Shown: in pieces, positions 12,199 through 56,521 of the stretch | Numbering within the stretch: the stretch's first letter is position 1 | Layout of the letters: each line of letters begins with the position of its first letter | DNA from: Corallococcus caeni | GTDB lineage: Bacteria; Myxococcota; Myxococcia; Myxococcales; Myxococcaceae | DNA: 64,000 nucleotides | Direction: 5' to 3' (one strand) | Assembly: GCF_036245885.1 (NCBI RefSeq) | Contig: NZ_BTTX01000008.1 | Program-made: the position numbers and the translations under genes | The notes under the pieces: model-generated | Database searches by the model: none | What the model was told of the DNA's origin: nothing | Seen by the model: the letters and a program-made list of their open reading frames with translations, nothing else

Positions 12199-13854
12199 AT
12201 GCAAAAGCCCACCGAACCGACCTCCGCGCAGTCCGAGCCGTTGACGACGGGACGGATCCTGCGCGCCACGTATGAGATTGGCACCGTGCTGGGCAAGGGC
12301 GGCATGGGGGCGGTGTTCCTGGCCCGCCACCTGCGTCTGCCGGGCAAGCAGGTCGCCATCAAGGTGCTGCACGGCGCGGAGGCGCTGTCGGAAGAGGTGG
12401 CGGTGCGCTTCCGGCGCGAGGCGGAGATCGCCTCCCGGCTGGGGCACCCGAACATCGTGGAGGTGCTGGACTTCGACACCCTGGAGGACGGCACGCCCTT
12501 CATGGTGATGGAGTACCTGCGCGGCGAGGGCCTGTCGCGCCGGCTGCGCAAGCAGAAGCAGCTGCCGCTGGAGGAGGTCCTCTCCATCGCGCGGCAGATG
12601 GGCGCGGCGTTGCAGGCGGCGCACCGCGCGGGCGTGGTGCACCGCGACCTGAAGCCGGGCAACGTGTTCCTCGTGCCCACGGAGGCCGGCGGCGTCGTGG
12701 GCGAGCGCGTGAAGCTGCTCGACTTCGGCATCTCCAAGCTCGTGGACTCTCGCACCGTGCAGACGCTGGACTCGGTGCTGATGGGGACGCCGCAGTACAT
12801 GGCCCCTGAGCAGGCCATGGGCCAGAACAGCAACGTGGACGCGCGCACGGACCTGTTCGCGTTCGGCTGCATCGTCTACGAGATGCTCGCCGGACGGCCG
12901 CCCTACTCCGGCGACAACATCGCGGAGCTGATCTATCAAATCGTCCACCTGGAGCCGCCGCCGCTCCTTTCGCTGGCACCGGGCACGCCGCCGCACGTGG
13001 TGGCGGCCATCACCCGCGCGATGGCGAAGAAGCCGGAGGACCGCTACCCGGACGTGGGCAGCTTCATCCTGGAGCTGACGGGCAGCCCGCTCCAGACGCT
13101 CGCGGAGGCGAAGCACGAGCGCACGCGCCCCTCCGCCCCCACGTCCCCGCCGCCCGCGTCGCGCCCGCCGGATCAGGAGGAGCACATCCCCACGGTGGGC
13201 ATGCGCCCCCACGCCGGCCGCGAGGCCTCCCCCACCGGGCCACAGACCGCCTCCCTGCCCGCGCAGCCCCTGTCCCGCCCCCGCCCGAAGTGGCCGGTGG
13301 CCGTGGCCGTGGGCCTGGCGGTCATCATCGCGTTCGCCGTCGCCTTCTTCTGGAAGGGCGCGGCCACGCCCCCGCCCACCGTCGTCGCGGCGAATCCGCC
13401 GGCGCCCACGGCCCCCGTCGCGGCGGCGCCCGTCGCGGCCGTGACGCCGCCCGTGGAGCAGAAGCCGCCCGTGGTGGAGCCGGCTGCCCAGCCGCCGCGG
13501 CCGACGGCTCCCGAGGAGAAGCGGCCGTCCGTGGAGCCCACGGACCCGCCCGCCGTCACGACCCGGCCGAAGGCGCCGCGCGGTGGCGGCGTCCCGGAGT
13601 CGATGCCGGACAGCGTGCGCGAGGACCTGGCGTCCGCGCAGAAGGCGCTGGACGCGTCGAACTCGTCGGAAGCGTTGCGTCACATCCGGCGCAGCCAGCG
13701 CACGAAGATTACCGGCCTGTCGTTCTCGCTGCTCACCCGCGTGTACTGCCATCAGCACGACCTGGCGAATGCGCGGGCGCAATGGACCCGGGTCCCGGCA
13801 ACGGAACGTCCAAGGGTCCGACAATACTGTTCGCAGTACGATATCGACCTCTAG
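12199..13854 (+). CDS. Hanks-type Ser/Thr protein kinase with a TM segment and a Pro-rich extracytoplasmic tail
   Basis: Gly loop LGKGGMGAVF, VAIK, HRDLKPGN, DFG, APE and DLFAFGCIVYEMLAG are all present, followed by a TM helix (WPVAVAVGLAVIIAFAVAFFW) and a P/A/T-rich region. Confidence 0.9.
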   Translation: MQKPTEPTSAQSEPLTTGRILRATYEIGTVLGKGGMGAVFLARHLRLPGKQVAIKVLHGAEALSEEVAVRFRREAEIASRLGHPNIVEVLDFDTLEDGTPFMVMEYLRGEGLSRRLRKQKQLPLEEVLSIARQMGAALQAAHRAGVVHRDLKPGNVFLVPTEAGGVVGERVKLLDFGISKLVDSRTVQTLDSVLMGTPQYMAPEQAMGQNSNVDARTDLFAFGCIVYEMLAGRPPYSGDNIAELIYQIVHLEPPPLLSLAPGTPPHVVAAITRAMAKKPEDRYPDVGSFILELTGSPLQTLAEAKHERTRPSAPTSPPPASRPPDQEEHIPTVGMRPHAGREASPTGPQTASLPAQPLSRPRPKWPVAVAVGLAVIIAFAVAFFWKGAATPPPTVVAANPPAPTAPVAAAPVAAVTPPVEQKPPVVEPAAQPPRPTAPEEKRPSVEPTDPPAVTTRPKAPRGGGVPESMPDSVREDLASAQKALDASNSSEALRHIRRSQRTKITGLSFSLLTRVYCHQHDLANARAQWTRVPATERPRVRQYCSQYDIDL

Positions 13855-43183: not shown

Positions 43184-43196
43184 ACAGGAGACAACC

Positions 43197-44762
43197 ATGA
43201 CCACGATGATTGCCGTTGGACTGGGCGTATTGAGTCTGTTGCTCCTCGGGTTGTGGTTCCAGACACGAAGTCGGCTCAAGGCCGTCCAGGAGCGCTTCAA
43301 GCCCATCCTGGACCTGGAGGCCGAACGGCGGCGGGTGGCCGAGGAGTTGACGCGGGCGCGCACGGACGCGGACGCTGCGCTGGCCGCGGAGCAGAAGCGG
43401 GTCCGCGAAGAGTTGGCGAAAGCCAGGAGCGAGGCGGACAACGCGCTGGCGGCGGAGCAGAAGCGGGTGGAAACCCAGCTGGCCCGGGCCAAGGCGGACG
43501 TGGAGCAAGCCATCACGGCCGAACAGGGCCGGGCGAAGGCGGAGCTGAGCCGGATCCGTGAAGAGACGGCGAAGACAACCCAGAGCGCGACACGCGCCAT
43601 GGAAGAGGCGGAAGCGCGGCGAAAGCAGGCGAACACCGAGCGAACCAGCCTGGAGTCAGGCCTCGCCCGGTTGAAGGCCGAGCTGAAGGCCCTTGAGGAA
43701 GAGGAGGTCCTGCTCTCCTTTGGCTTCTACAAGCCGGTGTACGCCCTCTCGTCCGTGAAGGAATACGAGGACCGCCTGGAGAGGCTCCGCGATTCTCAGA
43801 AACAGATGCTGAAGAACAAGGAAGCCGCCACGTGCTCTCTCCAGTGGGAGGTCAATGGCAGCAAGGCGGAGGGCAAGAAGCAGACGGACCGTACCTTGAA
43901 GCTGATGCTCCGGGCCTTCAATGGCGAAGCGGATGCGTGTGTCGCGAAGGTTTCGTACAAGAACGTGAAGGCAATGGAGACGCGCATCGAGAAGGCAGCT
44001 GCCGCCATAAATGGCCTTGTGGAGATACAGCGGTGTGTCATCGACAGGCGCTACGTCAAGCTCAAGGTCGAGGAGCTGATGCTCGCATATGAGCACTCGG
44101 AGAAGGTGCAACAGGAGCGGGACGAACAGCGCCGCATCCGGGAGCAGATGCGAGAGGAGGAGGCCGCCCAGCGCGAGCTGGAGAAGGCGAAGCTGGAGGC
44201 GGAGCGCGAGTCGAAGCGTGACGCCGAGGCCCTGGCGAAGGCGAAGGCGGACTACGATCGGGCAAAGGGCTCCGAGCAGCAGAAGTTGCTGGAACGCATC
44301 GCCGAGCTGGAGCGCCGCGTGGCCGAAGACCTGGAGAAGCAGCGAGCCATCTCCCAGGCACAGCTCACGCGGACAGGGCACGTCTACGTCATCTCCAACA
44401 TCGGCTCCTTCGGGGAGGGCGTCTACAAGCTGGGGATGACGAGGAGGCTCGTGCCCCAGGACCGCATCGACGAGCTGGGGGATGCATCCGTGCCCTTCGA
44501 GTTCGACGTCCACGCCATCATCCGGACCTCGGATGCCCCGGCCCTGGAGAACGCACTCCACAAGACGTTCGCGAACAGGCGCGTCAACCGCATCAATGAG
44601 CGCAAGGAGTTCTTCCGCGTCAGCCTGGATGAGATCGCCCAGGCCGTGCGAAAGCACCACGGGGAGTTCGAGCTGACCCAGCTTGCTGAGGCCGCGGAGT
44701 ACCGTAAGACCTTGGCGCTCCAAGAGGAGGAGCAGGGCGGTCGACGCGAGCGGGCCGCTTGA
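43197..44762 (+). CDS. membrane-anchored DUF4041-like coiled-coil protein with a C-terminal T5orf172 (Mug113/GIY-YIG-like) nuclease domain
   Basis: An AGGAG RBS precedes the ATG at 43197. N-terminal TM helix (MTTMIAVGLGVLSLLLLGLWF), a long E/R/A/K coiled-coil, and a C-terminus GHVYVISNIGSFGEGVYKLGMTRRLVPQDRIDELGD...FEFDVHAIIRTSDAPALENALHKTFANRRVN typical of T5orf172. It starts 14 nt after the helicase stop. Confidence 0.8.
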   Translation: MTTMIAVGLGVLSLLLLGLWFQTRSRLKAVQERFKPILDLEAERRRVAEELTRARTDADAALAAEQKRVREELAKARSEADNALAAEQKRVETQLARAKADVEQAITAEQGRAKAELSRIREETAKTTQSATRAMEEAEARRKQANTERTSLESGLARLKAELKALEEEEVLLSFGFYKPVYALSSVKEYEDRLERLRDSQKQMLKNKEAATCSLQWEVNGSKAEGKKQTDRTLKLMLRAFNGEADACVAKVSYKNVKAMETRIEKAAAAINGLVEIQRCVIDRRYVKLKVEELMLAYEHSEKVQQERDEQRRIREQMREEEAAQRELEKAKLEAERESKRDAEALAKAKADYDRAKGSEQQKLLERIAELERRVAEDLEKQRAISQAQLTRTGHVYVISNIGSFGEGVYKLGMTRRLVPQDRIDELGDASVPFEFDVHAIIRTSDAPALENALHKTFANRRVNRINERKEFFRVSLDEIAQAVRKHHGEFELTQLAEAAEYRKTLALQEEEQGGRRERAA

Positions 44763-44802
44763 ACTCGAACCTGCCTGCGCTTCTGATAGCGTTCGCCTCC
44801 CG

Positions 44803-46560
44803 ATGAGTTCCTACCCGTTCCTGCATCCGAAGGATGCGCTCCCAAATGCTGTCATTGCTGCCTCTAAAAACCGGAAAATCGCGTTTCTAGTGGGCTCTCC
44901 CTTGTCGACGCAGGAACGAGCCGACGCCCCTCAGGTTCCTGGGGTGGATGCGATGTTGGATCTCATCCGCGAGTACGTTCCGGCCGGATTCCAAGCGAAA
45001 TTCGACACGGAGCGCGAGTACACCAAAGAAAACAAATACCAATGGGCCATGCGCTTCGTGCAAGGCCTTGGTGACAAGGATGTCTCCGAGAAGGTTGTTC
45101 GGGAGGCGGTGCTTCGCGCACGGGTGGACCGCCAACGCGATGGAGCGGCGACCGACGACCAGCTGGATCTGGACCATGGCGGATGGGCCTTGCCGCCCGC
45201 GACGGAGCACCTCGGTAGATTGCTGGTGGAAAGAGCTGAGACGTTTGGTCCTGTCTTGACCACGAACTTTGATCCTCTCATCTCGGCATCGGTGAAGGTG
45301 GCTGGCGGCGATTTCCATCGCACCATCGTGGCCAGCGACATCCCGTTCGGGCAGACAGTCCCCGCCTCATCCAAATCCACACACATCATCCATCTTCACG
45401 GCTACTGGCACCGTTCGCCTACGTTACACACGGGTATCCAGCTTGGTCGCGAGCGCAGACACGTCTCCGCAGAGCTGATCCAGATTCTTCAAGACCACAC
45501 GCTGGTCGTGATCGGGTACGGCGGGTGGGATGACGTCTTCACCCAGACCCTCGCAACCATTGACATCGACCGACACAAGGACGTCGACATCCTCTGGGGG
45601 TTCTACGGAGAAGAAGACGCCGTGATTGAGGCCCGCAATCCAAATCTCTTCAGCAGAGTCGCCAATCTGAGAGGTAGCAAAGGGCTTCGCTGCTATGGCG
45701 GAATCGACTGCCATAAGTTCTTCCCCGACCTGCGGAAACAATTTGGCGCGGCCAGCGCCCAGCTCTCGAACCCTCGAACCGCGGGCCAACCGACACCGCC
45801 ACCCTCCACGCGATCCGACACAAGCGCCAAAGCCACGGTGCAGACTGCGCCGACGTCGCACAGCCCCCCGAAACCTCCTGAGCCCGCGCCACCCGTGCCG
45901 GCTGGCTCAACGCCAGCGCCGAGCACCGCGACTGTCACGGTCTCCCCAGTCATCACGGTCTCTCCTGTCATCCAAGTCCCAGCACCGCCTGTTACACCGA
46001 GTCGTTCGGGCTCCAGTCGGCTCGCGGTCGTCATCGCGGGAGGGGTGATCGCAGGGGGGATTGCCGTGGTCTCGCAGCGACCTGAAAGCGGCAAGGGATC
46101 ACCACCGCTGACGGATGTGCGTCCCATCGAGCAGCCACCTTCCGCCTTCGTGCCCATCGCTCCAGGTGCACAGATCAGGTCTGTGCGCCAGCAGCACCAG
46201 GTCGTGCCTGCGTCAGAATCCGAGCGTGGATCGCGGATCGCTCAGCTTCCGAGAGGTCGCTACGCCTTCCTTCGGCTGGATTCGATTCCGACCTACAACG
46301 CCAACACTCCGACCTACGGGAACCTGCCAGACGGAATCGAGGTTCACCGTGTACGAGCCACTGGCGAACTCTTCCTCGTTGGCTATGCCGAACCTCAAAC
46401 CGTTACGGCGCTCGCATCTACAACCCCCGCGCCCATCGTTCTCGCGGCCACGCCAGGAGGACGGCGCACCCAGGTTGCGAGCGTTCCTGTGATCAGGATG
46501 TCAACGGCCGAAGTGCGGATGGACAAAAGCACCCGCGTTCTCGTGCTTCAACTCAACTAA
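44803..46560 (+). CDS. SIR2_2-type (Sir2-like NADase fold) domain protein with a TM segment and a Pro-rich C-terminal region
   Basis: SIR2_2 hallmarks IAFLVGSPLS, VLTTNFDPLIS, IIHLHGYW and LVVIGYGGWDD. A TM helix (LAVVIAGGVIAGGIAVV) follows. GC is markedly lower (~58% by eye) with atypical codons (aaa, gat, ttg). Confidence 0.75.
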   Translation: MSSYPFLHPKDALPNAVIAASKNRKIAFLVGSPLSTQERADAPQVPGVDAMLDLIREYVPAGFQAKFDTEREYTKENKYQWAMRFVQGLGDKDVSEKVVREAVLRARVDRQRDGAATDDQLDLDHGGWALPPATEHLGRLLVERAETFGPVLTTNFDPLISASVKVAGGDFHRTIVASDIPFGQTVPASSKSTHIIHLHGYWHRSPTLHTGIQLGRERRHVSAELIQILQDHTLVVIGYGGWDDVFTQTLATIDIDRHKDVDILWGFYGEEDAVIEARNPNLFSRVANLRGSKGLRCYGGIDCHKFFPDLRKQFGAASAQLSNPRTAGQPTPPPSTRSDTSAKATVQTAPTSHSPPKPPEPAPPVPAGSTPAPSTATVTVSPVITVSPVIQVPAPPVTPSRSGSSRLAVVIAGGVIAGGIAVVSQRPESGKGSPPLTDVRPIEQPPSAFVPIAPGAQIRSVRQQHQVVPASESERGSRIAQLPRGRYAFLRLDSIPTYNANTPTYGNLPDGIEVHRVRATGELFLVGYAEPQTVTALASTTPAPIVLAATPGGRRTQVASVPVIRMSTAEVRMDKSTRVLVLQLN

Positions 46561-46566
46561 AAGACA

Positions 46567-47247
46567 ATGAAACTCACCCATCGAATCCTTACTTGCCTTG
46601 GCTTGGCGTCCTTCTTGTTGCTTGCCGCATGTGGGCCCGAGGACCTCAGCCCCGGCGGCCCCGACCCCATCACGGATGACCCGCCTCCGCTCACCGAGCT
46701 TTGTACCGCGGAGAGCTGTGAAGGCTGCTGCGACCCAACCACCAACAAGTGCGTCATGACTCGCACCGCCGACGCATGCGGTCCGAACGGCAGCACCTGT
46801 TCCAAGTGCACAACCGGGATGATGTGCCACCCTTCCAAGCAGCAGTGCTACACCCCCACCATCCGCACGAAGATCCAGCCCCTTCGTGCGCAGATCGCGC
46901 CGCTGGATCCCTCTGACAACAGCGACTGGGACGTTGATGGCTCGCCGCCGGATGTCGTGATTCAGCTGTCGTGCCCCAACACGCCAGCCGCCGTACCCCC
47001 TTCGGAGGAAGTTGAGAGCTTCACCCCCACCTGGACGAAGGGCTCATGCGACGTCCTCAGTACCGATCTGCTTTCGGCCCCCATCCAGTTCACCGTCATT
47101 GATGTTGACGCCATCTTCGACGACCCGATTGCGTCGGCGCAGTACCAGATGACCCGCGCCGACATCGACCGTGGCGTCGTGGAGCTCACGGGTTCGAGTG
47201 CATTGCTCTCCGTGGCCTTCCAGGTCACCACCTACTACGCCGAATAG
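46567..47247 (+). CDS. Cys-rich lipoprotein (paralogue of the gene at 51768..52388)
   Basis: Lipobox LLLAACG. An N-terminal Cys-rich module (CTAESCEGCCDPTTNKCV...CSKCTTGMMC). The C-terminal domain has DWDVDGSPPDV. It starts 7 nt after the SIR2-like stop. Confidence 0.7.
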   Translation: MKLTHRILTCLGLASFLLLAACGPEDLSPGGPDPITDDPPPLTELCTAESCEGCCDPTTNKCVMTRTADACGPNGSTCSKCTTGMMCHPSKQQCYTPTIRTKIQPLRAQIAPLDPSDNSDWDVDGSPPDVVIQLSCPNTPAAVPPSEEVESFTPTWTKGSCDVLSTDLLSAPIQFTVIDVDAIFDDPIASAQYQMTRADIDRGVVELTGSSALLSVAFQVTTYYAE

Positions 47248-47261
47248 CCCGTCACCGCACT

Positions 47262-47330
47262 GCGCTCCCAAGCAGTGTCACCGCCGCCCGCTTCCAGTCC
47301 GTCCGGAAGTGAGGCGGCGGGTTCGTCTCG
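47262..47330 (+). repeat. copy 2 of the ~60-nt terminator-like repeat (about 80% identical to 37808-37875)
   Basis: caagcagtgtcaccgccgcccgcttccagtccgtccggaagtgaggcggcgggttcg compared with caaggcagtgccaaacgccgcccgtttccggtcctccggaagcgaggcggcgttttcg. Both copies lie immediately 3' of a plus-strand stop codon. Confidence 0.55.
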
Positions 47331-47518
47331 AGCCGCTACTCCTCACGAGGGATGCACAGGAGGAGTGAAACCGGTCAGAACCCTCTCCTCTACTTGGAGA
47401 TGAGGACTCACCCCTCCTCCTCCCTGCGGTTGAATCTTCCCATCATCTCCACGTCCGGAAGGGACGGGAGTCGTTGGCACCGCGGGCCAGTCCACGCGAG
47501 CCATTTCTGGGGGAGCGC

Positions 47519-48886
47519 ATGTCCAATCAGAGCTTCGAGGTCATCTCGGTCCCACCTCAGCCACGGCGGGTCATTCTGGTCTCGATTGATTGGACGCGCG
47601 ACAAGGATCCTCGCCTTCCGCTGGGACATGCTTCCATCGTCGCGGCACTGCGACATGCAAACGTCGACGTGCGAGCGTTCTCCTTTGCCGTCAATCGCTC
47701 TGACTTCAGTGAGGAGCACATCCTGTGGAGCGTGCTTGAAAGTGCACGGGGACTTGAGGCTCGGGACGTGGACCTGGGCCTTGGCGTCTACGTGTGGAAC
47801 GACCGGGTGGTGAAGAGGCTTCTGGGGGCGGTCCGCCGGAGCGGATTCGCGGGACGTATCATCCTCGGAGGGCCACAGGTCTCCTACGCGGGACCGGGCC
47901 TTGAGCAGCTCTATCCCGAGGCGGATGGATTCGTCCGGGGTTATGGCGAAGAGGCCATGGTGGCGATTGCCGCTACGTCCGAGCGGGTCCGGTTTCCAGG
48001 AGTCCATTGGGCTGGCCAGTTGGATGCTGGCGTCCAAGCACAGGCGAAGCTGGAGACGCTTGCTTCTCCCTTCCTCGAAGACGTGATTGAACTTTCAGGG
48101 GAGCAACGGTTCATCCGGTGGGAAACCCAGCGAGGGTGTCCCTTCCGCTGCTCGTTCTGCCAGCATCGGGAGGCTGGCAGCCGGTTGCGTCGCCGCGATC
48201 TCCCCATGGCACGACTTGAGGAAGAGATTGAGCTGTTCGTGTACTCGGGAGTGAACGACATCGCCGTGCTGGATCCGCTCTTCAATCTCGGGGATCACGC
48301 GCTGGCGGTGCTGCGGACTTTCCAGCGGCTTGACTATCGCGGACGGCTATCTTTGCAGTGCCACTTCTCGACGTTGGATGATGAGTTCCTCGACGCCTGC
48401 GAAGGGCTCGCGGTCCGGCTTGAGTTTGGCCTGCAGACCATCCACGAGAAGGAGGCACGCGCCGTGGAGCGCGTGAATCATCTCGAGAAGGTGGTGGAAG
48501 GAGTCCGCAAGCTCCACGCGCGCGGCATCCCTTTCGAGGTTTCCATCATCTTCGGGCTGCCCGAGCAGACGTTGGAGTCCTTTCGACAAACGGTCGACTT
48601 CTGCCTCCGTCGGCAAGTGCCCGTGCTCAAGGCGTTTCCCCTCATGTTGCTACGGGGAACCCAACTGGAACGTGAGCGGGCACGATGGGGGCTGGAGGAG
48701 AATGACGCCCCCATCCCAAGCGTCATCCGCAGCCACACGTTCAATGAACAGGAGTGGAGTCGGATGGAGGCGCTCGCGGAAGCACTCCGCCAGACTGAAG
48801 GCAGGCATCCGGATTGTGTCGAAGCCTTGGAGGTGCGGGTGGTCTCCCTTCCGGACACTTCCGGCTGGTGGTCACCAGCGGCATAG
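47519..48886 (+). CDS. B12-binding-domain radical SAM enzyme
   Basis: An N-terminal Rossmann-like B12-binding region, the CxxxCxxC motif (QRGCPFRCSFCQH), and a TIM-barrel-like remainder. The ATG at 47519 follows GGGGGAGCGC. Confidence 0.85.
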   Translation: MSNQSFEVISVPPQPRRVILVSIDWTRDKDPRLPLGHASIVAALRHANVDVRAFSFAVNRSDFSEEHILWSVLESARGLEARDVDLGLGVYVWNDRVVKRLLGAVRRSGFAGRIILGGPQVSYAGPGLEQLYPEADGFVRGYGEEAMVAIAATSERVRFPGVHWAGQLDAGVQAQAKLETLASPFLEDVIELSGEQRFIRWETQRGCPFRCSFCQHREAGSRLRRRDLPMARLEEEIELFVYSGVNDIAVLDPLFNLGDHALAVLRTFQRLDYRGRLSLQCHFSTLDDEFLDACEGLAVRLEFGLQTIHEKEARAVERVNHLEKVVEGVRKLHARGIPFEVSIIFGLPEQTLESFRQTVDFCLRRQVPVLKAFPLMLLRGTQLERERARWGLEENDAPIPSVIRSHTFNEQEWSRMEALAEALRQTEGRHPDCVEALEVRVVSLPDTSGWWSPAA

Positions 48887-49005
48887 GGACCTGACGGCAG
48901 CTACGCCTCGACAGGCGGCTTGGTGCGGGTCATGTAGCTTCATGCGGTCAGTGTCCCCTTATGATGCCGGAGGGGGACGGGCATCAGTGGGTATGATGCA
49001 GGGCC

Positions 49006-50457
49006 ATGTACCCGAGACGCCGTCTCCTGGCCCGAGGACCGTGGTTGTTTGATCTCAGACCGCAGCGGCTCATCGTCTTCCACGGAGCCGACGGCGTGCG
49101 CCGGGAGGCCAGTGGAGACGTGCCGGATCATCCGTCCGCGCCCGTGGTGCTCGCCGCGCTCAATGAGGGACAGGACGTCTGGGTGGGAAGCGGGGATCGG
49201 CGTGTCTTCTCCGTGGGGGCCGGCGCGAGCGCTCCCGTCCAGGCCTTTCCGAAGGAGTGCTTCGATCTCACCTGCGATGGAGACCGGCTCATCGGAACGG
49301 TGGTGGACAGCGCCCACAAGCTGACCACCCTCTTCACGACCGATGGGTCCGGGCAGCGATGGGAGCCCATGACCTTGCCCAAGCCCGTGCTCGCCACGCA
49401 CGGGTACGGATACTCCGAGGGGCGCCCCCTCAGTCAGTCCCCCGATGGGGCGTTCCTCGACACGAGCCCTTTTGGAATCACCGTCCTGGAGAAGGGGCGG
49501 GGCCGCGTCTACGTGCTCCGCGCGGGGGCTGCTCAGCCGGAGGGCGCGCTCCAGGTGGAGCCGGGTGGTGAGGAGGACAACTGGCGGGCCGTGGCCACTC
49601 CCCACGGCGTGCTCCTCCTGCTCGTCGTCAACTACCGGCAGACGGCGCTCCTCCATTTCGCGCTCGATGGCACCCTGCTCGGCTCCATCCCGGAGAGCGA
49701 GGATGAGGATGATGCTGCGGATGACCTGACCTGGAGCGGTGCCGGGGTGTGCGTCCTCGACGCGGCCCGGGCGCTCCTCTTCGTCCAGGACAAGGCCCTC
49801 CTGGTGTCCCTGCCCGGGCTCCAGGTGCTCGAAACGCTCGTCGGGGAGTGGCCCCGCTTCGTTACCGTGACTCCCGCGGGGCCTGACCGGTGGTGGGTGG
49901 GCGCCGAGGACAGTGACGCGCTCTTCCTGCTCACCGCCGAGCCCGGACACCCCTTGCGCCTCCACGCCTCGAACCGCCTGGTGAACCCAGGCGCGCCGCT
50001 CATGCACGTGGGCTACAAGACGCCCGCGTTCCACTGGACCGAGCACTCCTCGGGGCCACTGACCGTGTCCGCGCCCGTGACCGAGACGTGGCGGGCGGTG
50101 GTGCGCAATGACGGGACCTCGTGTGAGGCCGTGCGGATCCGGGTGTCCGGGGCGCTCGTCGGCGCTCGCGTGGTGGACGTGAGCGTGCGGTATCGCGGTC
50201 AGCCACTCCCGATGGTGAATGAGAACCGCGTGAACCTCGTGGGGGTCTCCGCCGGATTGGAGGCAGGCGCTGTCGCGGAGCTGGAGGTGACCTTCAAGCC
50301 CCGGAGCGAGGGCTCGGGACCGCTGACCATCACCGTCGAGCCGTGCTCCTGGCAATCGCAGGCCAAATACTGGCAGTGGCAGGACAAGGAGGAGCCTCGC
50401 GTCCTCACGGTGACGGGCCATCCGGCATCCGCCTTGTTCCCGCTCACGGTGGAGTAG
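49006..50457 (+). CDS. hypothetical protein (483 aa), beta-rich
   Basis: Coding-like ORF with no recognisable catalytic motif. Its 3' end overlaps the convergent pseudokinase gene by 14 nt. Confidence 0.5.
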   Translation: MYPRRRLLARGPWLFDLRPQRLIVFHGADGVRREASGDVPDHPSAPVVLAALNEGQDVWVGSGDRRVFSVGAGASAPVQAFPKECFDLTCDGDRLIGTVVDSAHKLTTLFTTDGSGQRWEPMTLPKPVLATHGYGYSEGRPLSQSPDGAFLDTSPFGITVLEKGRGRVYVLRAGAAQPEGALQVEPGGEEDNWRAVATPHGVLLLLVVNYRQTALLHFALDGTLLGSIPESEDEDDAADDLTWSGAGVCVLDAARALLFVQDKALLVSLPGLQVLETLVGEWPRFVTVTPAGPDRWWVGAEDSDALFLLTAEPGHPLRLHASNRLVNPGAPLMHVGYKTPAFHWTEHSSGPLTVSAPVTETWRAVVRNDGTSCEAVRIRVSGALVGARVVDVSVRYRGQPLPMVNENRVNLVGVSAGLEAGAVAELEVTFKPRSEGSGPLTITVEPCSWQSQAKYWQWQDKEEPRVLTVTGHPASALFPLTVE

Positions 50458-51769
50458 CGCGGACCTTCTCGGGCTCGGGCGCAGCGCTCATCTTCCAGAG
50501 CAGCGCGCCGCCTCCGAGCAGGCTCCCCAGACCCACTGCCGCCGCGAGGATCCAGCCTCGTCTCAAGCAGGGCCGTGCCTGGGTCTCCGGATCGTCGCTC
50601 GCGGTGATCTGCTGGAGGAGCTGGGCCACCTGCCGCGGTGTCACCGGCTCACCCTCCGAGCGGATGAACTGCTCCAGTTCCTCCCGGAACACGTGGCAGT
50701 CCGGGTAGCGCTGGTCCCGATCCTTCGCGAGCGCCCGGGCGAGGATGGCTCGCAGGACTCCGGGCAGGTCCGGGCGGTGCTGCTCGGCGGGCACCATGGG
50801 CTCGGACATGACGGCCCGAGGCAAGTCCCATTCGGACGTGGACGAAAAGGGCCTGCGCGTGGTGAGCAACTCGTAGAGCACCACCCCGAGCGCGTAGACG
50901 TCGACCCGCCGGTCCACCCGCTCGCCCCTTATCTCCTCGGGCGCCATGTACACGTAGCTGCTCATGACGGGGAGCGGGTGTTCGGGGGTCCACCGGGACC
51001 GGAGATGGTCGATGCCGAAGTCCACCACCTTGGTCGTCCCCTGACGCGACAGGAGGACGTTGTACGGCCGGAGGCAGCGGTGGATGAGCCTCAGCGGCTC
51101 GTGCGTCTCGGGGTGGGTCAGGTCGTGGGCATAGGCGAGCCCCTCGCAGGCTTGCGAGATGATGCGCGCGCACAGCGTCGCCGGCAGGGTCATCCGCTGG
51201 ACCGCCAGGTGCTGGATCAACCTGCTCAGGCTGATCCCATCGACGTGCTCCCTGGCGAGGAAGTACGTGCCGTCCGCCTCACCGAAATCAAAGACCTTCA
51301 CGAGGTGCGGGTGCGTGAGCCGGGCGGCGGTCCTCGCCGTGTCGAGGAACAGCTCCGGGAACTCCATCTGCTCGGCCATGTCCGGCCGGAGGCACTGGAG
51401 CACCAGCGTCTTCTCGATGCCCAGCGGGCCAGCGGCCTTGGCCAGATGGTCCTCGATGATGCCTTCGGCGAGCAGGCGGATGCGCTGGTATTGGCCGACG
51501 TGGGATGTCACGAGACAGATGAATAGCAGATCGCCGATCTCATCGAGCGCTGGCAGGGAACGGGGCGTGCCACGCGACGATGGAGCCTGGACGGACCCAT
51601 GGCTACACGGGGTGGCGCCATGAAGCTCGACCTCGTCGTGCTGTTCACCGCAGGCAACGACAACCACGTCGCCATCTGGCGGAAGTTCCGTGAGGATCTG
51701 CTGCCCCGATACATCCTGGCCGCGGTCACCGCGAAGTGAACCCCCTCTGATAGCCTTCCCGGCCGTCAT
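50444..51769 (-). CDS. Ser/Thr-kinase-fold protein with degenerate catalytic motifs (predicted pseudokinase), a C-terminal TM segment and a short tail
   Basis: The kinase fold is recognisable (YQRIRLLAEG...; HPHLVKVFDFGE; VVDFG; YMAPEEI; DVYALGVVLYELLT). However, the Gly loop is A-E-G-I-I-E, the beta3 Lys is Leu (TLVLQ), and HRD is H-R-C (LIHRCLRPYN). The ATG at 51769 overlaps the divergent lipoprotein ATG (CATG); an internal GTG start is possible. Confidence 0.6.
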   Translation of the reverse strand: MTAGKAIRGGSLRGDRGQDVSGQQILTELPPDGDVVVVACGEQHDEVELHGATPCSHGSVQAPSSRGTPRSLPALDEIGDLLFICLVTSHVGQYQRIRLLAEGIIEDHLAKAAGPLGIEKTLVLQCLRPDMAEQMEFPELFLDTARTAARLTHPHLVKVFDFGEADGTYFLAREHVDGISLSRLIQHLAVQRMTLPATLCARIISQACEGLAYAHDLTHPETHEPLRLIHRCLRPYNVLLSRQGTTKVVDFGIDHLRSRWTPEHPLPVMSSYVYMAPEEIRGERVDRRVDVYALGVVLYELLTTRRPFSSTSEWDLPRAVMSEPMVPAEQHRPDLPGVLRAILARALAKDRDQRYPDCHVFREELEQFIRSEGEPVTPRQVAQLLQQITASDDPETQARPCLRRGWILAAAVGLGSLLGGGALLWKMSAAPEPEKVRATPP

Positions 51770-52388
51770 GAAAACGCCCTGCCTGCTCCTGATGGCCCTG
51801 TCGTGCGCCCTCTTCCTCCCGGCCTGCGGTGAGCCCGAGTGCACTCCGGAGAGCTGCGCGAATGGCTGCTGCTCCGTGAGCAACGTGTGCGTTCTCGACC
51901 TCGGCGACGCCCTCTGCGGCTCCAACGGCGCCCGCTGTGAGAGCTGTCCCGACGGCAATGTCTGTCGGCTCGATACCCGGGCCTGTTACGCGGGCGTGAT
52001 GCGGACGCGGGTGCAGCCCCGCCGGGCCTTCATCGCGGACGTCGATCCGGACAACGGCGAGGACTGGGATTCCGACGGCTCCCCGCCCGACGTCGTCGTG
52101 GAGATGCGCTGCCCCTCCGCTCCGGAGCGCACCCGCACCGCCGAGGACGAGAGCTGGGAGCCCGAATGGCGCTCGGGCAGCTGTGAGGTCATCACGTCCA
52201 ACCTCCTCCAGCACCCCATCGAAATCTCCATCTTCGACAACGATGACTTCACCTTCGATGACGAGTTCGGCGGAACCTCCTACCAGGTCACCCGCGCGGA
52301 TCTGAACAGGGGCCACATCGAGCTCGCGTTTCCTCCCATCGTGGAGTCCCTGGTCATCGACCTGACCCACACCTATTCGCCCCAATGA
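51768..52388 (+). CDS. Cys-rich lipoprotein (paralogue of the gene at 46567..47247)
   Basis: MKTPCLLLMALSCALFLPACG lipobox. The same Cys-rich N-module and a C-domain with DWDSDGSPPDV and YQVTRADLNRGHIEL, matching YQMTRADIDRGVVEL in the paralogue. Confidence 0.7.
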   Translation: MKTPCLLLMALSCALFLPACGEPECTPESCANGCCSVSNVCVLDLGDALCGSNGARCESCPDGNVCRLDTRACYAGVMRTRVQPRRAFIADVDPDNGEDWDSDGSPPDVVVEMRCPSAPERTRTAEDESWEPEWRSGSCEVITSNLLQHPIEISIFDNDDFTFDDEFGGTSYQVTRADLNRGHIELAFPPIVESLVIDLTHTYSPQ

Positions 52389-52436: not shown

Positions 52437-52922
52437 ATGCGCCCCCATGCCCTGCTCCTGCCGCTCCTGTTCGCCAGCGCCTGCGGTCCCTCCTCCTCCG
52501 TGGACGAGGGGCTCGGCGTCATCCAGCAGCTCGACACGTCCGAACAGGGCATCACCGCCTTCGTGCGCTCCGGCCAGTACAGCTCCTGGCTCGCGGAGCC
52601 CTCCGTCCACGACACGCGCGCCCCTCACGGCAGCAAGGTCCGCGTCTTCTTCAACGACGTCGTCGCGAGCTCGCTCCGGGAAGGCAATGCCACCCATCCC
52701 GTGGGCAGCATCCTCGTGAAGGAGCTCTTCGAGGACGACGGGAAGACGCTCCGGGGCCACGCGCTGGACGTGAAGGTCGCCGAGGGCCCCGGCAAGAACA
52801 CCTGGGTCTTCTACGAGGGCTTCGGCCCGACCTACTCCGACAACTATTACGGCCGCGCCCACTCCAGCTGTCACGGCTGCCATTCCGACGGGAAGGACTA
52901 CGTCACCTCTCCGCTCCCCTGA
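52437..52922 (+). CDS. small lipoprotein with a C-terminal CXXCH motif (possible cytochrome P460-like haem protein)
   Basis: Lipobox LLFASACG. ~160 aa with a C-H-G-C-H motif near the C-terminus (SSCHGCHSDGKDY). Size and motif position resemble the cytochrome P460 family; this is an inference. Confidence 0.55.
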   Translation: MRPHALLLPLLFASACGPSSSVDEGLGVIQQLDTSEQGITAFVRSGQYSSWLAEPSVHDTRAPHGSKVRVFFNDVVASSLREGNATHPVGSILVKELFEDDGKTLRGHALDVKVAEGPGKNTWVFYEGFGPTYSDNYYGRAHSSCHGCHSDGKDYVTSPLP

Positions 52923-54186: not shown

Positions 54187-54732
54187 TCAGTAGACGGGCA
54201 GCACCTGGGCGTCCTTCAGCCGGGGCGCGCGCTGATCCTTCACCGACAGCAGCGGCTCCTTCACGGGCCAGGGAATCGCCAGGTCCGGATCGTCCCAGGC
54301 CACGCTCCGCTCGGACTCCGGGGCGTATTGCGCGGTGCACTTGTAGAAGAAGTCCGCCGAGTCGCTCAGCACGCAGAACCCGTGCGCGAAGCCCGGGGGG
54401 ATCCACAGCTGCCACTTGTTGCCGGAGGACAGCTCCGCCCCCATCCACCGGCCGAACGTGGGCGAGCCCTTGCGCACGTCCACCACCACGTCCCAGACCG
54501 CGCCCGCCAGCACCTGCACCAGCTTCCCCTGCCCGTTCGGCTCCTGGAAGTGCAGGCCCCGGAGCGTGCCCCGCACCGACCGCGACAGGTTGTCCTGCAC
54601 GAAGGCGCTCGGGATGCCCGCGTCCTGGTAGCGCTGGGCGTGGAACGTCTCCACGAAGAAGCCACGCGAGTCCCCGAACACGCGGGGCTCCAGCAGCAGG
54701 ACCCCGGGAAGCTCCGTCGTCTGCACCTTCAT
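54187..54732 (-). CDS. rfbC: dTDP-4-dehydrorhamnose 3,5-epimerase
   Basis: The ATG at 54732 gives [30 protein letters not shown]...RGLHFQ...[18 protein letters not shown], which is RmlC. Confidence 0.9.
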
Positions 54733-55610
54733 GGCGTCGTCCCCCGGGTCCCCAGGAGCGCCTTCAGGTACTGGCCGTAGTCGTTCTTCAACATGGGCTC
54801 CGCGAGCGCCTCCAGCCGCGCCTCGTCGATGTAGCCCATGCGGTAGGCGATCTCCTCCGGACAGGCGATCTTCAGCCCCTGCCGGCGCTCGATGATCTCG
54901 ATGAACGACGAGGCCTGCATCAGCGACTCGTGCGTCCCGGTGTCCAGCCACGCGTAGCCGCGGCCCATCAACTCCACCGTGAGCTGGTCGCGGCGCATGT
55001 ACTCCGCGTTGACGTCGGTGATCTCCAGCTCGCCCCGCTTGCTGGGCTTCAGCGCGGCGGCGATGTCCAGCACCTGGTTGTCGTAGAAGTACAGCCCCGT
55101 GACGGCGTAGTGGGACTTCGGCTTCGCGGGCTTCTCCTCGATGCTGATGGCCCGGTTGCCCGGCGCCAGCTCCACCACGCCGTAGCGCTGCGGATCCTTC
55201 ACCTGGTAGCCGAACACCGTCGCCCCGGACGCGCGCCGCACCGCCCGGCGCACCAGCTCGCTCAGGCCATCCCCGTAGAAGATGTTGTCCCCCAGGATGA
55301 GCGACACGGCGTCGCTCCCCACGAAGTCCCGGCCAATGACAAACGCCTGCGCCAAGCCCTCCGGCCGGGGCTGCTCCGCGTACTGGAAGGACATGCCCCA
55401 CTGCTCGCCGTCGCCCAGGAGGTCGCGGAAGCGCGGCAGGTCGTGCGGCGTGGAGATGATCAACACCTCCCGGATGCCCGCCAGCATCAGCGTGGTCAGC
55501 GGGTAGTAGATCATCGGCTTGTCGTAGACGGGCAGGAGCTGCTTGCTCACCACGAGCGTCAGCGGATACAGGCGCGTCCCCGAGCCTCCCGCCAGGATGA
55601 TTCCCTTCAT
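54729..55610 (-). CDS. rfbA: glucose-1-phosphate thymidylyltransferase
   Basis: The ATG at 55610 gives [18 protein letters not shown]...[11 protein letters not shown]...[20 protein letters not shown], which is RmlA. It overlaps rfbC by ATGA. Confidence 0.92.
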
Positions 55611-56521
55611 CCCGCCTCCCCGGCCCGGGCCTCGAGCCAGCTCGCATGGAAGCGCCGCAGGGACTCCGCCAGCGCCAGCGGCTTCTCCGACAGCTGCTCC
55701 CGCGCCTTGTCCGTCAAGAGCCCGCTCTTCAGCGGCCGGGGCGCGGACAACTTCAGGTCCGCCATCCGCGTGGGGACCACCAGGCCCCCGTCGAAGCCGA
55801 ACACGTCGCACAGCGCCCGCCCGAAGGCCACGCGGTCCAGCACCGTGCCGCCGCAGGTGTTCCACGTCCCGCCCAGCCGCCGCTCGCCCAGCTCCACCAG
55901 CATCGCGGCCACGTTGTCCGCGAAGCTCGGGGACACGACCTGATCCTCGAAGAGCTTCACCGGCTGCCCCGCGGACAGCGTCTTCACCAGCCACGCGCCG
56001 AAGTTGAGCCGGCCCTCCACTGGAGGCCAGCCATACACCACCGCGGTCCGGGCAATCGCGCACCCGGGCGAGAGCACGCGCGCGGCCTGTTCGCCCATGT
56101 GCTTCGTCACCGCGTAGACGCCGCGCGGGTTCGGCACCGCGTCCTCGCCGTAGGGCCCCGCGTCGCCGTCGAAGACGTAGTCGGTGGACACGTGCACCAG
56201 GTGCGCGCCGGCCTCGCGCGTCCAGCGGGCCACCGCCGCCGTGGCGGTGACGTTCGCGGCGTACGCGGCCTCGGGCGCCTTCTCGCAGGCGTCCACCTCC
56301 GTCATGGACGCGCAGTGCAGGACGACCTCCGGGGACAGCCGCCCCAACGCGGGCGCCACGTCCGCCTCGCGCGTGAGGTCCAGCGCCTCGTAGTCGAACG
56401 GCCCCAAGGCGCGGCGCGCGCCCTTCCCCACTCCGACCACCGAGTGCCCTCGCGCGGCCAGCAGCGCGCACGCCCGGCGCCCCACCAGCCCGTTCGCTCC
56501 CGTCACGACGAACCGGCTCAT
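55607..56521 (-). CDS. rfbD: dTDP-4-dehydrorhamnose reductase
   Basis: The ATG at 56521 gives [16 protein letters not shown]...[10 protein letters not shown]...[10 protein letters not shown], which is RmlD. It overlaps rfbA by ATGA. Confidence 0.88.

What the first reader, a model, noticed from the sequence alone, without database searches (positions are those of the whole stretch)
50444..51769. Kinase-fold protein with all three catalytic hallmarks degenerate: predicted pseudokinase
The Hanks fold is clear (DFG, APE, the subdomain IX helix DVYALGVVLYELLT), but the Gly loop is AEGIIE, the VAIK lysine is Leu, and HRD is HRC. Loss of the beta3 Lys and the catalytic Asp together predicts no phosphotransfer. 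Pseudokinases in bacteria act as scaffolds or sensors. This one has a C-terminal TM segment and sits between the rSAM pair and duplicated lipoproteins.
Basis: seen in the sequence. Interest (0 to 1): 0.5.

Follow-up and report, generated by a model that had tools for sequence, protein, structure and literature searches.

The report
Membrane-anchored dead kinase in Corallococcus
This gene encodes a well-folded protein kinase look-alike that has lost nearly every residue needed to transfer phosphate; relatives in several soil myxobacteria share the same losses, making it a fairly ordinary new example of a bacterial pseudokinase.

Summary
The core observation holds, with two corrections. The gene is 50444..51511 (-), 355 aa, starting at a GTG that all orthologues share, not at 51769. 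The beta3 lysine is replaced by Gln (LVLQCL), not Leu.

Against PknB and 85 intact Pkn6-like paralogues:
- The Gly loop is shortened (AEGIIED).
- The alphaC Glu is Thr.
- HRD is HRC.
- The adenine-capping Val is Asp.
- The gatekeeper Met is Arg.
- DFG, the catalytic-loop Asn and APE are kept.

The same changes occur in all 36 members of a monophyletic clade from Corallococcus, Myxococcus, Pyxidicoccus and Hyalangium, so this is not a frameshift or sequencing error.

AlphaFold gives a confident kinase fold. dN/dS is about 0.2-0.45, so selection is purifying but relaxed. Constraint is lost mainly in the Gly loop, alphaC and the activation segment.

The only neighbour conserved across genera is a convergent beta-propeller/Ig protein (49006..50457). 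The rSAM gene and the lipoproteins are not conserved neighbours.

Verdict: a real, maintained pseudokinase and a new member of a known kind. Its non-catalytic role is inferred, not shown. Interest is modest.

The parts
50444..51511 (-). Pseudokinase CDS, 355 aa, GTG start (MTSHVGQYQRIRLL...)
   Evidence: The 99%-identical annotated orthologue P0001 is 355 aa. The GTG and the first codons are conserved in six loci. Pfam Pkinase scores 98 bits.
50642..51502 (-). Hanks-type kinase domain (residues 4-290)
   Evidence: The PknB alignment covers it. The AF2 model has pLDDT 86.8, with Foldseek TMt up to 0.91 to PknB.
51449..51472 (-). Degenerate Gly-rich loop LAEGIIED, one residue shorter than in active kinases. 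Asp21 replaces the beta2 Val that caps adenine.
   Evidence: D21 is found in 97% of the clade; Val is found in 100% of the active paralogues.
51389..51406 (-). Beta3 strand LVLQCL: Gln39 replaces the VAIK Lys
   Evidence: The clade has Q 28, E 4, H 1 and K 0; the active paralogues have K in 85/85.
51332..51349 (-). AlphaC FLDTAR: Thr58 replaces the salt-bridge Glu
   Evidence: The clade has T 24, M 6, K 1 and E 4; the active paralogues have E in 85/85.
51239..51262 (-). Gatekeeper and hinge FLAREHVD: Arg87 replaces the gatekeeper Met (PknB M92)
   Evidence: Position mapped with the PknB alignment. R is found in 92% of the clade; M is found in 100% of the active paralogues.
51059..51082 (-). 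Catalytic loop HRCLRPYN: Cys146 replaces the HRD Asp, and Asn151 is kept
   Evidence: Cys is found in 35/36 of the clade.
50936..51022 (-). Activation segment from DFG to APE (DFGIDHLRSRWTPEH...YMAPE). The DFG Asp is kept. The loop is remodelled, with a clade-specific RxRW.
   Evidence: This is the most relaxed region: entropy 1.4-1.5 against 0.37-0.54 in the active paralogues.
50498..50554 (-). C-terminal TM helix WILAAAVGLGSLLGGGALL, followed by a 17-residue tail (50447..50497)
   Evidence: Hydropathy is 1.84 over 19 residues. The helix is present in 26 of 36 clade members.
49006..50457 (+). Convergent partner gene: 483-aa ORF (annotated as 470 aa) encoding a cytoplasmic beta-propeller plus a C-terminal Ig-like (CARDB/PKD-like) domain. 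Its 3' end overlaps the pseudokinase 3' end by 14 bp.
   Evidence: It lies next to the pseudokinase in all 10 orthologous loci, whatever the surrounding genes. There is no Pfam, NCBIfam or PADLOC hit and no TM segment or signal peptide.
48962..51550 (.). The roughly 2.6-kb DNA block shared with other genera: the two convergent genes plus 20-45 bp on each side
   Evidence: blastn against L001-L007 and L053-L055 gives the same edges in every locus, at 77-91% identity.

Best explanation
**Shown**
- 50444..51511 (-) encodes a 355-aa protein with an intact, confidently modelled Hanks-type kinase fold, a juxtamembrane helix, one C-terminal TM helix and a 17-residue tail.
- It belongs to a small monophyletic clade of 36 sequence clusters from Corallococcus, Myxococcus, Pyxidicoccus and Hyalangium.
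- The closest relatives of that clade are intact Pkn6-like receptor kinases with a C-terminal PEGA ectodomain.
- The clade has lost that ectodomain and has replaced the beta3 Lys (Gln), the alphaC Glu (Thr), the catalytic Asp (Cys), the Gly-loop geometry, the adenine-capping Val (Asp) and the gatekeeper Met (Arg).
- The ORF is kept open, and dN/dS is about 0.2-0.45. Constraint is lost specifically in the Gly loop, alphaC, the activation segment and the P+1 region. The core helices stay conserved.

**Inferred**
- The protein cannot transfer phosphate and probably cannot bind ATP, because a charged Arg87/Asp21 pair sits where adenine would bind.
- It therefore most likely works as a non-catalytic adaptor tethered to the cytoplasmic face of the inner membrane. 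It would bind partners through its preserved C-lobe and its remodelled, Arg-rich activation loop.
- One candidate partner is the co-inherited cytoplasmic beta-propeller/Ig protein encoded tail-to-tail with it. Another is the active Pkn6-like paralogues, through kinase-domain heterodimerisation.
For: - **Kinase fold.** Pfam Pkinase 98 bits, PknB E 4e-33, AF2 pLDDT 86.8 and pTM 0.82, Foldseek TMt 0.76-0.91 to PknB.
- **Motif losses, and their clean split between 36 clade members and 85 intact paralogues.**
- **Pocket substitutions D21, R87 and H89.**, positions mapped.
- **Monophyly.** 50/50 bootstraps, also with the discriminating columns removed.
- **Selection on the reading frame.** The gene has 95 one-step paths to a stop codon, so P(no stop) is below 0.01 at neutral divergence of 0.15 or more.
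- **Selection on the protein.** GY94/YN00 omega is 0.22-0.44 against 0.02-0.12 for flanking genes. Per-site conservation correlates with that of the active paralogues (Spearman 0.31, p 7e-8), and relaxation is concentrated in catalytic and substrate-binding elements.
- **Partner gene.** It is adjacent and convergent in 10 of 10 loci from four genera, with otherwise different neighbours, and the homology block has sharp edges. The partner is predicted to be a cytoplasmic beta-propeller/Ig protein.
- **Literature.** M. xanthus has 11 pseudokinases among 99 STPKs, and 7 of them are developmentally regulated (PMC6791715). Bacterial pseudokinases with C-terminal TM anchors and occluded pockets are described in PMC12599244.
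Against: - No activity, nucleotide-binding or interaction data exist.
- Model coordinates could not be inspected, so pocket occlusion by Arg87/Asp21 is inferred from sequence.
- Omega is 3-8 times higher than in flanking genes.
- 10 of 36 clade members lack the TM anchor. Several partner genes are truncated or frameshifted. One Pyxidicoccus copy is N-terminally truncated. All of this is compatible with partial decay.
- In this genome a deletion ends about 30-50 bp upstream of the start codon, and no sigma70-like promoter was detected, so expression is uncertain.
- More distant relatives of the partner protein are not next to kinases in two of three loci examined. The pairing may therefore only reflect co-inheritance of one block.
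- The two genes are convergent, not co-transcribed.
Confidence: 0.6

Rival explanations
1. Evolutionary relic. The gene is a duplicated Pkn6-like kinase that lost its function and is slowly decaying. The protein, if it is made at all, does nothing.
For: - It has the highest dN of its neighbourhood, and omega is 0.22-0.44 against 0.02-0.12. NG86 even gives 0.6-1.2.
- The ectodomain is lost, the TM is lost in 10 of 36 members, and a truncated extra copy exists in Pyxidicoccus.
- There is a deletion close to the start codon in this genome, and no promoter-like site was detected.
Against: - The kinase-domain ORF is intact in 36 clusters across four genera, despite 95 one-step stop paths.
- Omega is clearly below 1 with codon-frequency-aware methods.
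- Substitutions are non-uniform: the core helices are conserved and the catalytic elements are relaxed.
- Replacement residues are nearly fixed in the clade (R171 100%; C146, D21 and R173 97%; R87 92%; Q39 85%), which neutral drift would not maintain.
- GC3 is 0.90, typical of host genes.
Confidence: 0.2
2. Non-canonical enzyme. The protein keeps the metal ligands (the DFG Asp and Asn151) and uses them, perhaps with the invariant Cys146, for atypical phosphotransfer or other chemistry. Known precedents are WNK (displaced Lys), SelO (AMPylation) and SidJ (glutamylation).
For: - DFG Asp is kept in 33/36, Asn151 in 35/36 and His144 in 36/36. Cys146 is nearly invariant and Arg148 sits at the canonical catalytic-loop Lys position.
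- Precedents for active 'pseudokinases' are reviewed in PMC12599244 and PMC9403797 (listed).
Against: - No clade-specific Lys appears anywhere that could substitute for the beta3 Lys.
- The third Gly-loop position, which WNK uses, is Ile19.
- The adenine-contacting Val and the gatekeeper are replaced by charged Asp and Arg.
- The Gly loop is shortened.
- The activation and P+1 segments evolve freely.
Confidence: 0.07
3. Mobile conflict or defence module. The 2.6-kb pseudokinase plus propeller cassette is an accessory two-gene system that moves between myxobacteria and functions in phage defence or inter-bacterial conflict.
For: - The block has sharp edges and the same content in four genera with unrelated flanks.
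- Identity to Hyalangium (83-87% nt) is close to that among Corallococcus species (88-91%).
- The cross-genus dS of the pair (0.24-0.45 to Hyalangium and Pyxidicoccus, 0.6-0.9 to Myxococcus MISCRS1) is mostly in the within-genus range (0.22-0.42).
- In this window it abuts PD-Lambda-1, SIR2-like, PDC-M51A rSAM and DUF4011 helicase-nuclease genes.
- Other loci carry T6SS immunity, Apyc1-like and caspase-like genes.
Against: - No terminal repeats or mobility genes were found.
- The PADLOC hit to PD-T4-6 is generic: active housekeeping-type kinases score higher. That system is, to my knowledge, described as needing an active kinase.
- The partner has no PADLOC hit.
- The defence genes to the left are absent from the other loci.
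- No housekeeping comparator across genera was available to calibrate the HGT inference.
Confidence: 0.1

Closest known systems
Pkn6-like myxobacterial receptor Ser/Thr kinases with a C-terminal PEGA domain (P0036-P0120; some sources name them 'Pkn6')
   Same: They are the closest sequence relatives, at 47-57% identity over the kinase domain. They share the same juxtamembrane helix and single TM helix, and many core residues.
   Different: They are 530-750 aa long, with a Pro-rich linker and often a PEGA ectodomain. All 85 examined keep the Gly-loop glycines where that stretch is present (75/75), the beta3 Lys, the alphaC Glu and the HRD Asp. The window protein has none of these and only a 17-residue extracytoplasmic tail.
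M. tuberculosis MviN (Rv3910) pseudokinase domain, ActPs3 family
   Same: It is a membrane-associated bacterial Hanks-fold pseudokinase. ATP binding is abolished by bulky residues projecting into the pocket (PMC12599244). The mechanism proposed here, with Arg87 and Asp21 in the adenine pocket, is analogous.
   Different: ActPs3 is actinobacterial, lacks the DFG Asp, has a large activation-loop deletion and is fused to a MurJ-type flippase. Here the DFG is kept, the activation loop is full length and the protein stands alone.
EssB/YukC, the T7SSb membrane pseudokinase of Firmicutes
   Same: It is a single-pass membrane protein with a cytoplasmic degenerate kinase fold that acts as a scaffold (PMC12599244).
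   Different: EssB has all three motifs degraded and a reduced activation loop, is part of a secretion-system operon, and has no detectable close sequence relationship here. No secretion genes flank this gene.
The 11 annotated pseudokinases among the 99 STPKs of Myxococcus xanthus (Perez et al. 2008, as cited in PMC6791715)
   Same: Same kind of object in the same bacterial family: Hanks-type kinases lacking at least one catalytic residue, several of them developmentally regulated.
   Different: No M. xanthus protein appears among the 35 close homologues. This clade is therefore probably not one of those 11, but that was not tested directly.
PknB of M. tuberculosis (1MRU, 1O6Y)
   Same: It is the best solved-structure match: 28-30% identity and TMt up to 0.91.
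   Different: PknB is an active kinase with G18-x-G20-G21, K40, E59, M92, D138 and D156. The window protein has E, G, Q, T, R, C and D at the corresponding positions.

Membership tests
Hanks-type (eukaryotic-like) protein kinase fold, Pfam PF00069 | Profile match above the curated threshold | tested here: met
   98 bits against a cut-off of 31.7, E 7.9e-28.
Hanks-type (eukaryotic-like) protein kinase fold, Pfam PF00069 | Bilobal fold with an N-lobe beta-sheet plus alphaC and a helical C-lobe | tested here: met
   AF2 pLDDT 86.8. Foldseek to PknB gives E 3e-20 and TMt up to 0.91.
Catalytically competent Hanks kinase | Beta3 (VAIK) Lys | tested here: not met
   Gln39. None of 33 clade members has Lys.
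Catalytically competent Hanks kinase | AlphaC Glu that pairs with the beta3 Lys | tested here: not met
   Thr58.
Catalytically competent Hanks kinase | HRD catalytic Asp | tested here: not met
   Cys146. Cys is found in 35/36 clade members.
Catalytically competent Hanks kinase | Gly-rich loop (GxGxxG/S) | tested here: not met
   A-EGIIED, with a one-residue deletion and only one Gly.
Catalytically competent Hanks kinase | DFG Asp and catalytic-loop Asn (metal ligands) | tested here: met
   D164 and N151 are present.
Pseudokinase (sequence definition: at least one of VAIK-Lys, HRD-Asp or DFG-Asp missing) | At least one catalytic-triad residue is absent, and the loss is conserved in orthologues | tested here: met
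   Two of three are absent, in 36 clusters from four genera. The definition is as used in bioRxiv 2025.01.12.632604.
Pseudokinase (functional definition) | No phosphotransfer activity in vitro | not testable with these tools
   Needs purified protein and labelled ATP.
Pkn6-like PEGA receptor kinases | Extracytoplasmic PEGA domain after the TM helix | tested here: not met
   The protein ends 17 residues after the TM. PF08308 is absent.
Named bacterial pseudokinase families (ActPs1-3, GLW, CP1, DYD, DLHK) | Family motif patterns. ActPs1-3 and GLW lack the DFG Asp. GLW has LLLL/W at beta3. DLHK keeps the HRD Asp. CP1 is fused to COG3899 and lacks a TM. | tested here: not met
   Compared with the published descriptions only. 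Here the DFG Asp is kept, beta3 is LVLQCL, the HRD Asp is lost and a TM is present. The family profiles themselves were not available.
PD-T4-6 anti-phage Ser/Thr kinase (PADLOC) | A specific match to the PD-T4-6 models, beyond generic kinase similarity | tested here: not met
   The query scores E 3.8e-57. The canonical STK at 12199..13854 scores 1e-91 and the Pkn6-like P0038 scores 5e-74 against the same models.

The most novel reading that the evidence does not exclude
The roughly 2.6-kb cassette could be a self-contained two-gene module that spreads horizontally among myxobacteria. It consists of a tail-anchored pseudokinase with a charged, occluded ATP pocket and a near-invariant Cys in place of the catalytic Asp, plus a convergent beta-propeller/Ig protein from a very rare family. 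In this reading the dead kinase acts as a switch or receptor for the propeller protein, possibly in inter-bacterial or phage conflict, or with Cys146 as a redox or covalent sensor. That would be a new functional class of bacterial pseudokinase system.
Probability: 0.12. Interest if true: 0.6.

Novelty: new member of a known kind. Interest (0 to 1): 0.3.

Why it matters
Bacterial pseudokinases are catalogued, but almost none has a known function. Myxobacteria have the largest bacterial kinomes, and about a tenth of their kinases are predicted to be dead.

This clade is a compact and tractable example:
- Its active ancestor type is identifiable.
- Its set of pocket-closing substitutions is well defined (K->Q, E->T, D->C, V->D, M->R).
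- It has a single co-inherited candidate partner.

It could therefore be used to test how a receptor kinase is converted into a non-catalytic signalling protein. On present evidence it adds one more family to a known category and does not challenge any current view.

Tried and rejected
Rejected. The extension has no homologue. It runs antisense through a hydrolase remnant, and the GTG at 51511 is conserved.
2. **A frameshift or sequencing error as the cause of the lost motifs.** Rejected. The same residues occur in 36 clusters.
3. **A functional link to the B12-rSAM gene and lipoprotein A.** Rejected. Both are absent from all orthologous loci. Lipoprotein B and the P460-like gene are syntenic only within Corallococcus, and there a serine-hydrolase gene separates them from the pseudokinase.
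4. **Membership of the PD-T4-6, MADS6, PglW or MkoA defence kinases.** Rejected as generic kinase hits, using active kinases as controls.
5. **Nei-Gojobori dN/dS of 0.6-1.2, which suggested near-neutrality.** Superseded. With GC3 at 0.9 this method compresses dS. GY94-ML and YN00 give 0.22-0.44.
6. **Terminal inverted repeats at the cassette edges.** Only chance-level matches were found.
7. **Promoter and terminator scan of 50300..51850.** Nothing was found. The scan covers only sigma70-type consensus sites, so this is uninformative.
8. **Distant relatives of the partner protein as a test of linkage.** Two of three loci have no kinase nearby, and the third has an active-looking kinase 2.7 kb away. 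This gives no support beyond the close clade.
9. **WNK-like compensating Lys.** None was found among the clade-specific residues.
10. **Direct inspection of the ATP pocket.** Not possible, because the tools return no coordinates.
Full report
**1. What is at the coordinates**

The minus strand carries an open frame, 50444..51958, of 504 codons.

The closest database protein, from Corallococcus exercitus, is 99% identical and 355 aa long. That corresponds to a GTG at 51511 (MTSHVGQYQ...). This GTG and the codons after it are conserved in six aligned loci, and similarity stops about 45-50 nt upstream of it.

They read antisense through the remnant of a neighbouring gene and reach the divergent lipoprotein start at 51768.

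The gene is therefore 50444..51511 (-), 355 aa. The neighbouring protein at 49006..50457 is 100% identical to a Corallococcus caeni protein. The window therefore most likely comes from Corallococcus caeni or a very close relative.

**2. Is it a kinase fold with degenerate motifs?**

Yes. Pfam Pkinase scores 98 bits against a threshold of 31.7. The best solved-structure relative is M. tuberculosis PknB, at E 4e-33.

Reading the PknB alignment together with the family alignments gives the following.

| Element | PknB | Window protein |
|---|---|---|
| Gly loop | GFGGMSEV | A-EGIIED (one residue shorter, one Gly left) |
| Beta3 | K40 (VAVKVL) | Gln39 (LVLQCL) |
| AlphaC | E59 | Thr58 |
| Catalytic loop | HRD | HRC (Cys146) |
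| Catalytic-loop Asn | present | kept |
| DFG | present | kept |
| APE | SPE | APE (kept) |
| AlphaF | present | DVYALGVVLYELLT (kept) |

The canonical kinase at 12199..13854 has every motif intact and is 29% identical.

**3. Is this an error, a private mutation or a family trait?**

It is a family trait. Among the 120 best homologues, the first 35 plus the window protein form a group with these residues:

| Position | Clade (36 clusters) | Next 85 homologues |
|---|---|---|
| Beta3 | Lys 0/33 (Q 28, E 4, H 1) | Lys 85/85 |
| HRD Asp | Cys 35/36 | Asp 85/85 |
| AlphaC Glu | lost in 31/35 | Glu 85/85 |
| DFG Asp | kept in 33/36 | Asp 85/85 |

The next 85 homologues are 530-750 aa, many have a C-terminal PEGA domain, and some sources name them Pkn6.

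The group is one bipartition in 50 of 50 bootstrap NJ trees. That holds even after removing the motif columns.

Other residues that separate the two groups line the nucleotide pocket (positions mapped through):
- Ile18 for the Gly-loop Met.
- Asp21 for the beta2 Val that caps adenine.
- Arg87 for the gatekeeper Met (PknB M92).
- His89 for the hinge Tyr.

No clade-specific Lys appears that could rescue catalysis in the way WNK kinases do.

I infer from established kinase structure knowledge that ATP binding, and not only catalysis, is lost. I could not inspect model coordinates to confirm this.

**4. Is the protein still a real, selected product?**

- *Fold.* AlphaFold2 with a 121-sequence alignment gives pLDDT 86.8 and pTM 0.82. 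Only the activation loop and the C-terminal tail are uncertain. Foldseek places the model on PknB with TMt up to 0.91.
- *Reading frame.* The gene has 95 single-step paths to a stop codon. An unselected copy would have less than 1% chance of staying open at a neutral divergence of 0.15 or more. Yet the kinase domain is open in all 36 clusters.
- *dN/dS.* A first Nei-Gojobori estimate gave 0.6-1.2. With GC3 at 0.90 that method underestimates dS. Codon-frequency-aware estimates (GY94-ML with F3x4, and YN00) give 0.22-0.44 for the pseudokinase, 0.21-0.42 for its convergent neighbour and 0.02-0.12 for the flanking genes.
- *Where constraint is lost.* Per-site entropy is far above that of the active paralogues in the Gly loop (0.69 against 0.18), alphaC (1.02 against 0.58), and the activation and P+1 segments (1.4-1.5 against 0.37-0.54). 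AlphaE and the alphaH region are tightly conserved. Overall, site conservation correlates with that of active kinases (rho 0.31, p 7e-8).

This is the pattern expected when the fold is kept and catalysis and substrate binding are abandoned.

Signs of erosion also exist:
- 10 of 36 members lack the TM helix.
- Pyxidicoccus has an extra N-terminally truncated copy.
- Several partner genes are truncated or frameshifted.

**5. Architecture**

The kinase domain (residues 4-290) is followed by a helix and a basic stretch. Next come one TM helix (residues 320-338) and a conserved 17-residue tail, KMSAAPEPEKVRATPP.

The topology is the one usual for bacterial receptor kinases: cytoplasmic kinase domain, C-terminal TM helix. 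Here it carries essentially no ectodomain, whereas the Pkn6-like relatives continue into a Pro-rich linker and a PEGA domain.

**6. Genomic context**

- The B12-binding rSAM gene (47474..48886) and lipoprotein A (46567..47247) are absent from all orthologous loci.
- Lipoprotein B and the P460-like gene are syntenic only within Corallococcus.
- In the other Corallococcus species a divergent gene of about 580 aa lies between lipoprotein B and the pseudokinase. It looks like a secreted beta-lactamase-type serine hydrolase, an assignment made by eye and not tested with a family search.
- In this window that hydrolase gene is deleted except for about 95 C-terminal codons in two frames, at 51538..51730 (+).

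The one neighbour that is always present is 49006..50457 (+). It is convergent with the pseudokinase, and the two 3' ends overlap by 14 bp.
- It is adjacent in seven Corallococcus and Myxococcus loci, and in Hyalangium rubrum, Myxococcus sp. MISCRS1 and Pyxidicoccus xibeiensis. In those last three every other neighbour differs.
- DNA similarity in all ten loci covers window ~48962..51550, meaning the two genes plus 20-45 bp on each side.
- No terminal repeats mark the edges.
- The partner has no Pfam, NCBIfam or PADLOC match.
- Its family is very small: 35 clusters, and only four representatives at E<=1e-30 among 1.84 billion proteins.
- It is modelled at moderate confidence (pLDDT 69) as a beta-propeller plus a C-terminal Ig-like domain. 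The best solved match is the YVTN propeller-PKD protein 1L0Q.
- It has no TM segment or signal peptide, so it would sit in the same compartment as the pseudokinase domain.

Three more distant relatives of the partner were examined. Two have no kinase nearby and one has a kinase 2.7 kb away. The pairing is therefore demonstrated only within this closely related set. It could reflect inheritance or transfer of one block rather than functional coupling.

**7. How it most likely works**

*Shown.* The fold is intact and the protein is tail-anchored. Phosphotransfer and adenine-pocket residues are replaced consistently across the clade. Selection maintains the ORF and the core but not the catalytic or substrate elements.

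*Inferred.* The protein does not phosphorylate anything and probably does not bind ATP. It acts as a non-catalytic, membrane-tethered adaptor. Its binding surface would be the conserved C-lobe together with a remodelled activation loop carrying the clade-specific RxRW.

The candidate partners are the co-inherited propeller/Ig protein or the active Pkn6-like kinases of the same genome, by analogy with kinase-pseudokinase dimers. I put this composite explanation at about 0.6.

| Rival explanation | Probability |
|---|---|
| Decaying relic | 0.2 |
| Mobile conflict module | 0.1 |
| Non-canonical enzyme using the retained DFG Asp, Asn and the invariant Cys | 0.07 |

**8. Comparison with what is known**

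Myxobacterial pseudokinases are already recognised. M. xanthus has 99 STPKs, of which 11 are predicted pseudokinases, and seven of those are developmentally regulated (PMC6791715).

A 2025 atlas and review define seven bacterial pseudokinase families: ActPs1-3, GLW, CP1, DYD and DLHK. They also discuss EssB/YukC and MviN. None of these is myxobacterial, and the two Myxococcota families described there are canonical kinases.

By the published motif descriptions this clade fits none of the seven. The DFG Asp is retained, beta3 is LVLQCL, the HRD Asp is lost and a TM is present.

Functionally it most resembles membrane-anchored pseudokinases with occluded pockets, such as the MviN domain. It is not a member of that family.

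The strong PADLOC hits to PD-T4-6 are generic, because active kinases score higher against the same models.

**9. Verdict**

The pseudokinase interpretation is supported and strengthened. The proposed neighbourhood link is not supported.

It is a new, small, lineage-restricted member of a known kind. Interest is modest (0.3). The conserved two-gene cassette and the invariant Cys are the only features that might lead somewhere new.

Noticed in passing
window 37979-48886: A lower-GC stretch (62-68% against about 72% elsewhere) looks like a defence island. It holds a 1734-aa DUF4011 / Upf1-like helicase / REase_MTES_1575 protein (37979-43183), PD-Lambda-1 (43089-44762, E 9e-154), a SIR2_2-domain protein (44683-46560) and a B12-binding rSAM gene matching the PADLOC candidate PDC-M51A (47474-48886, E 2e-152). 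The SIR2, lipoprotein A and rSAM genes are missing from the orthologous locus L007.
   Followed up: partly
window 51538-51730 (+): This is the remnant of a gene of about 580 aa that looks like a secreted beta-lactamase-type serine hydrolase. The gene is intact and divergent from the pseudokinase in other Corallococcus species. Here only about 95 C-terminal codons survive, in two frames. The deletion ends about 30-50 bp upstream of the pseudokinase start and may affect its promoter.
   Followed up: yes
window 46567-47247 (+) and 51768-52388 (+): These are two paralogous Cys-rich lipoproteins, 35-41% identical. They have a lipobox (LAAC/LPAC) and a weak C2-domain match (PF00168, E 5.8e-5 for the second). 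Only the second is syntenic in other Corallococcus species. Their function is unknown.
   Followed up: partly
window 49006-50457 (+); P0121-P0155: The convergent partner belongs to a very rare family, with four representatives at E<=1e-30 among 1.84 billion proteins. It is predicted to be a beta-propeller plus an Ig-like domain. Many orthologues are C-terminally truncated (315-364 aa) and one is frameshifted (L006).
   Followed up: partly
alignment A2 (P0036-P0120): All 85 intact Pkn6-like paralogues have HRDISPDN, with Ser at the catalytic-loop position where canonical Ser/Thr kinases have Lys (HRDLKPxN). The pseudokinase clade has Arg or Lys there. The reason is unexplained.
   Followed up: no
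L055 2624-3742 (Pyxidicoccus xibeiensis): This is a second copy of the pseudokinase (P0035) that lacks the N-lobe strands beta1-beta3 and alphaC and has no propeller partner. It sits next to a T6SS Tdi1-like immunity gene.
   Followed up: partly
L004, L005, L053, L054 at the 3' junction of the two genes: Deletions at the convergent 3' junction remove the TM tail of the pseudokinase, the Ig-like domain of the partner, or both, in several species. The two C-termini therefore appear to be dispensable.
   Followed up: partly
window 52437-52922 (+) and 54187-57540 (-): There is a small secreted cytochrome P460-like protein with a weak Pfam match below threshold (23.6 against 27 bits). Downstream are four genes that I labelled rmlC, rmlA, rmlD and rmlB (dTDP-rhamnose pathway) by eye, without running a family search. 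In L002 these four are only 66-77% identical, with very high dS, so they may be a replaced (xenologous) copy.
   Followed up: no
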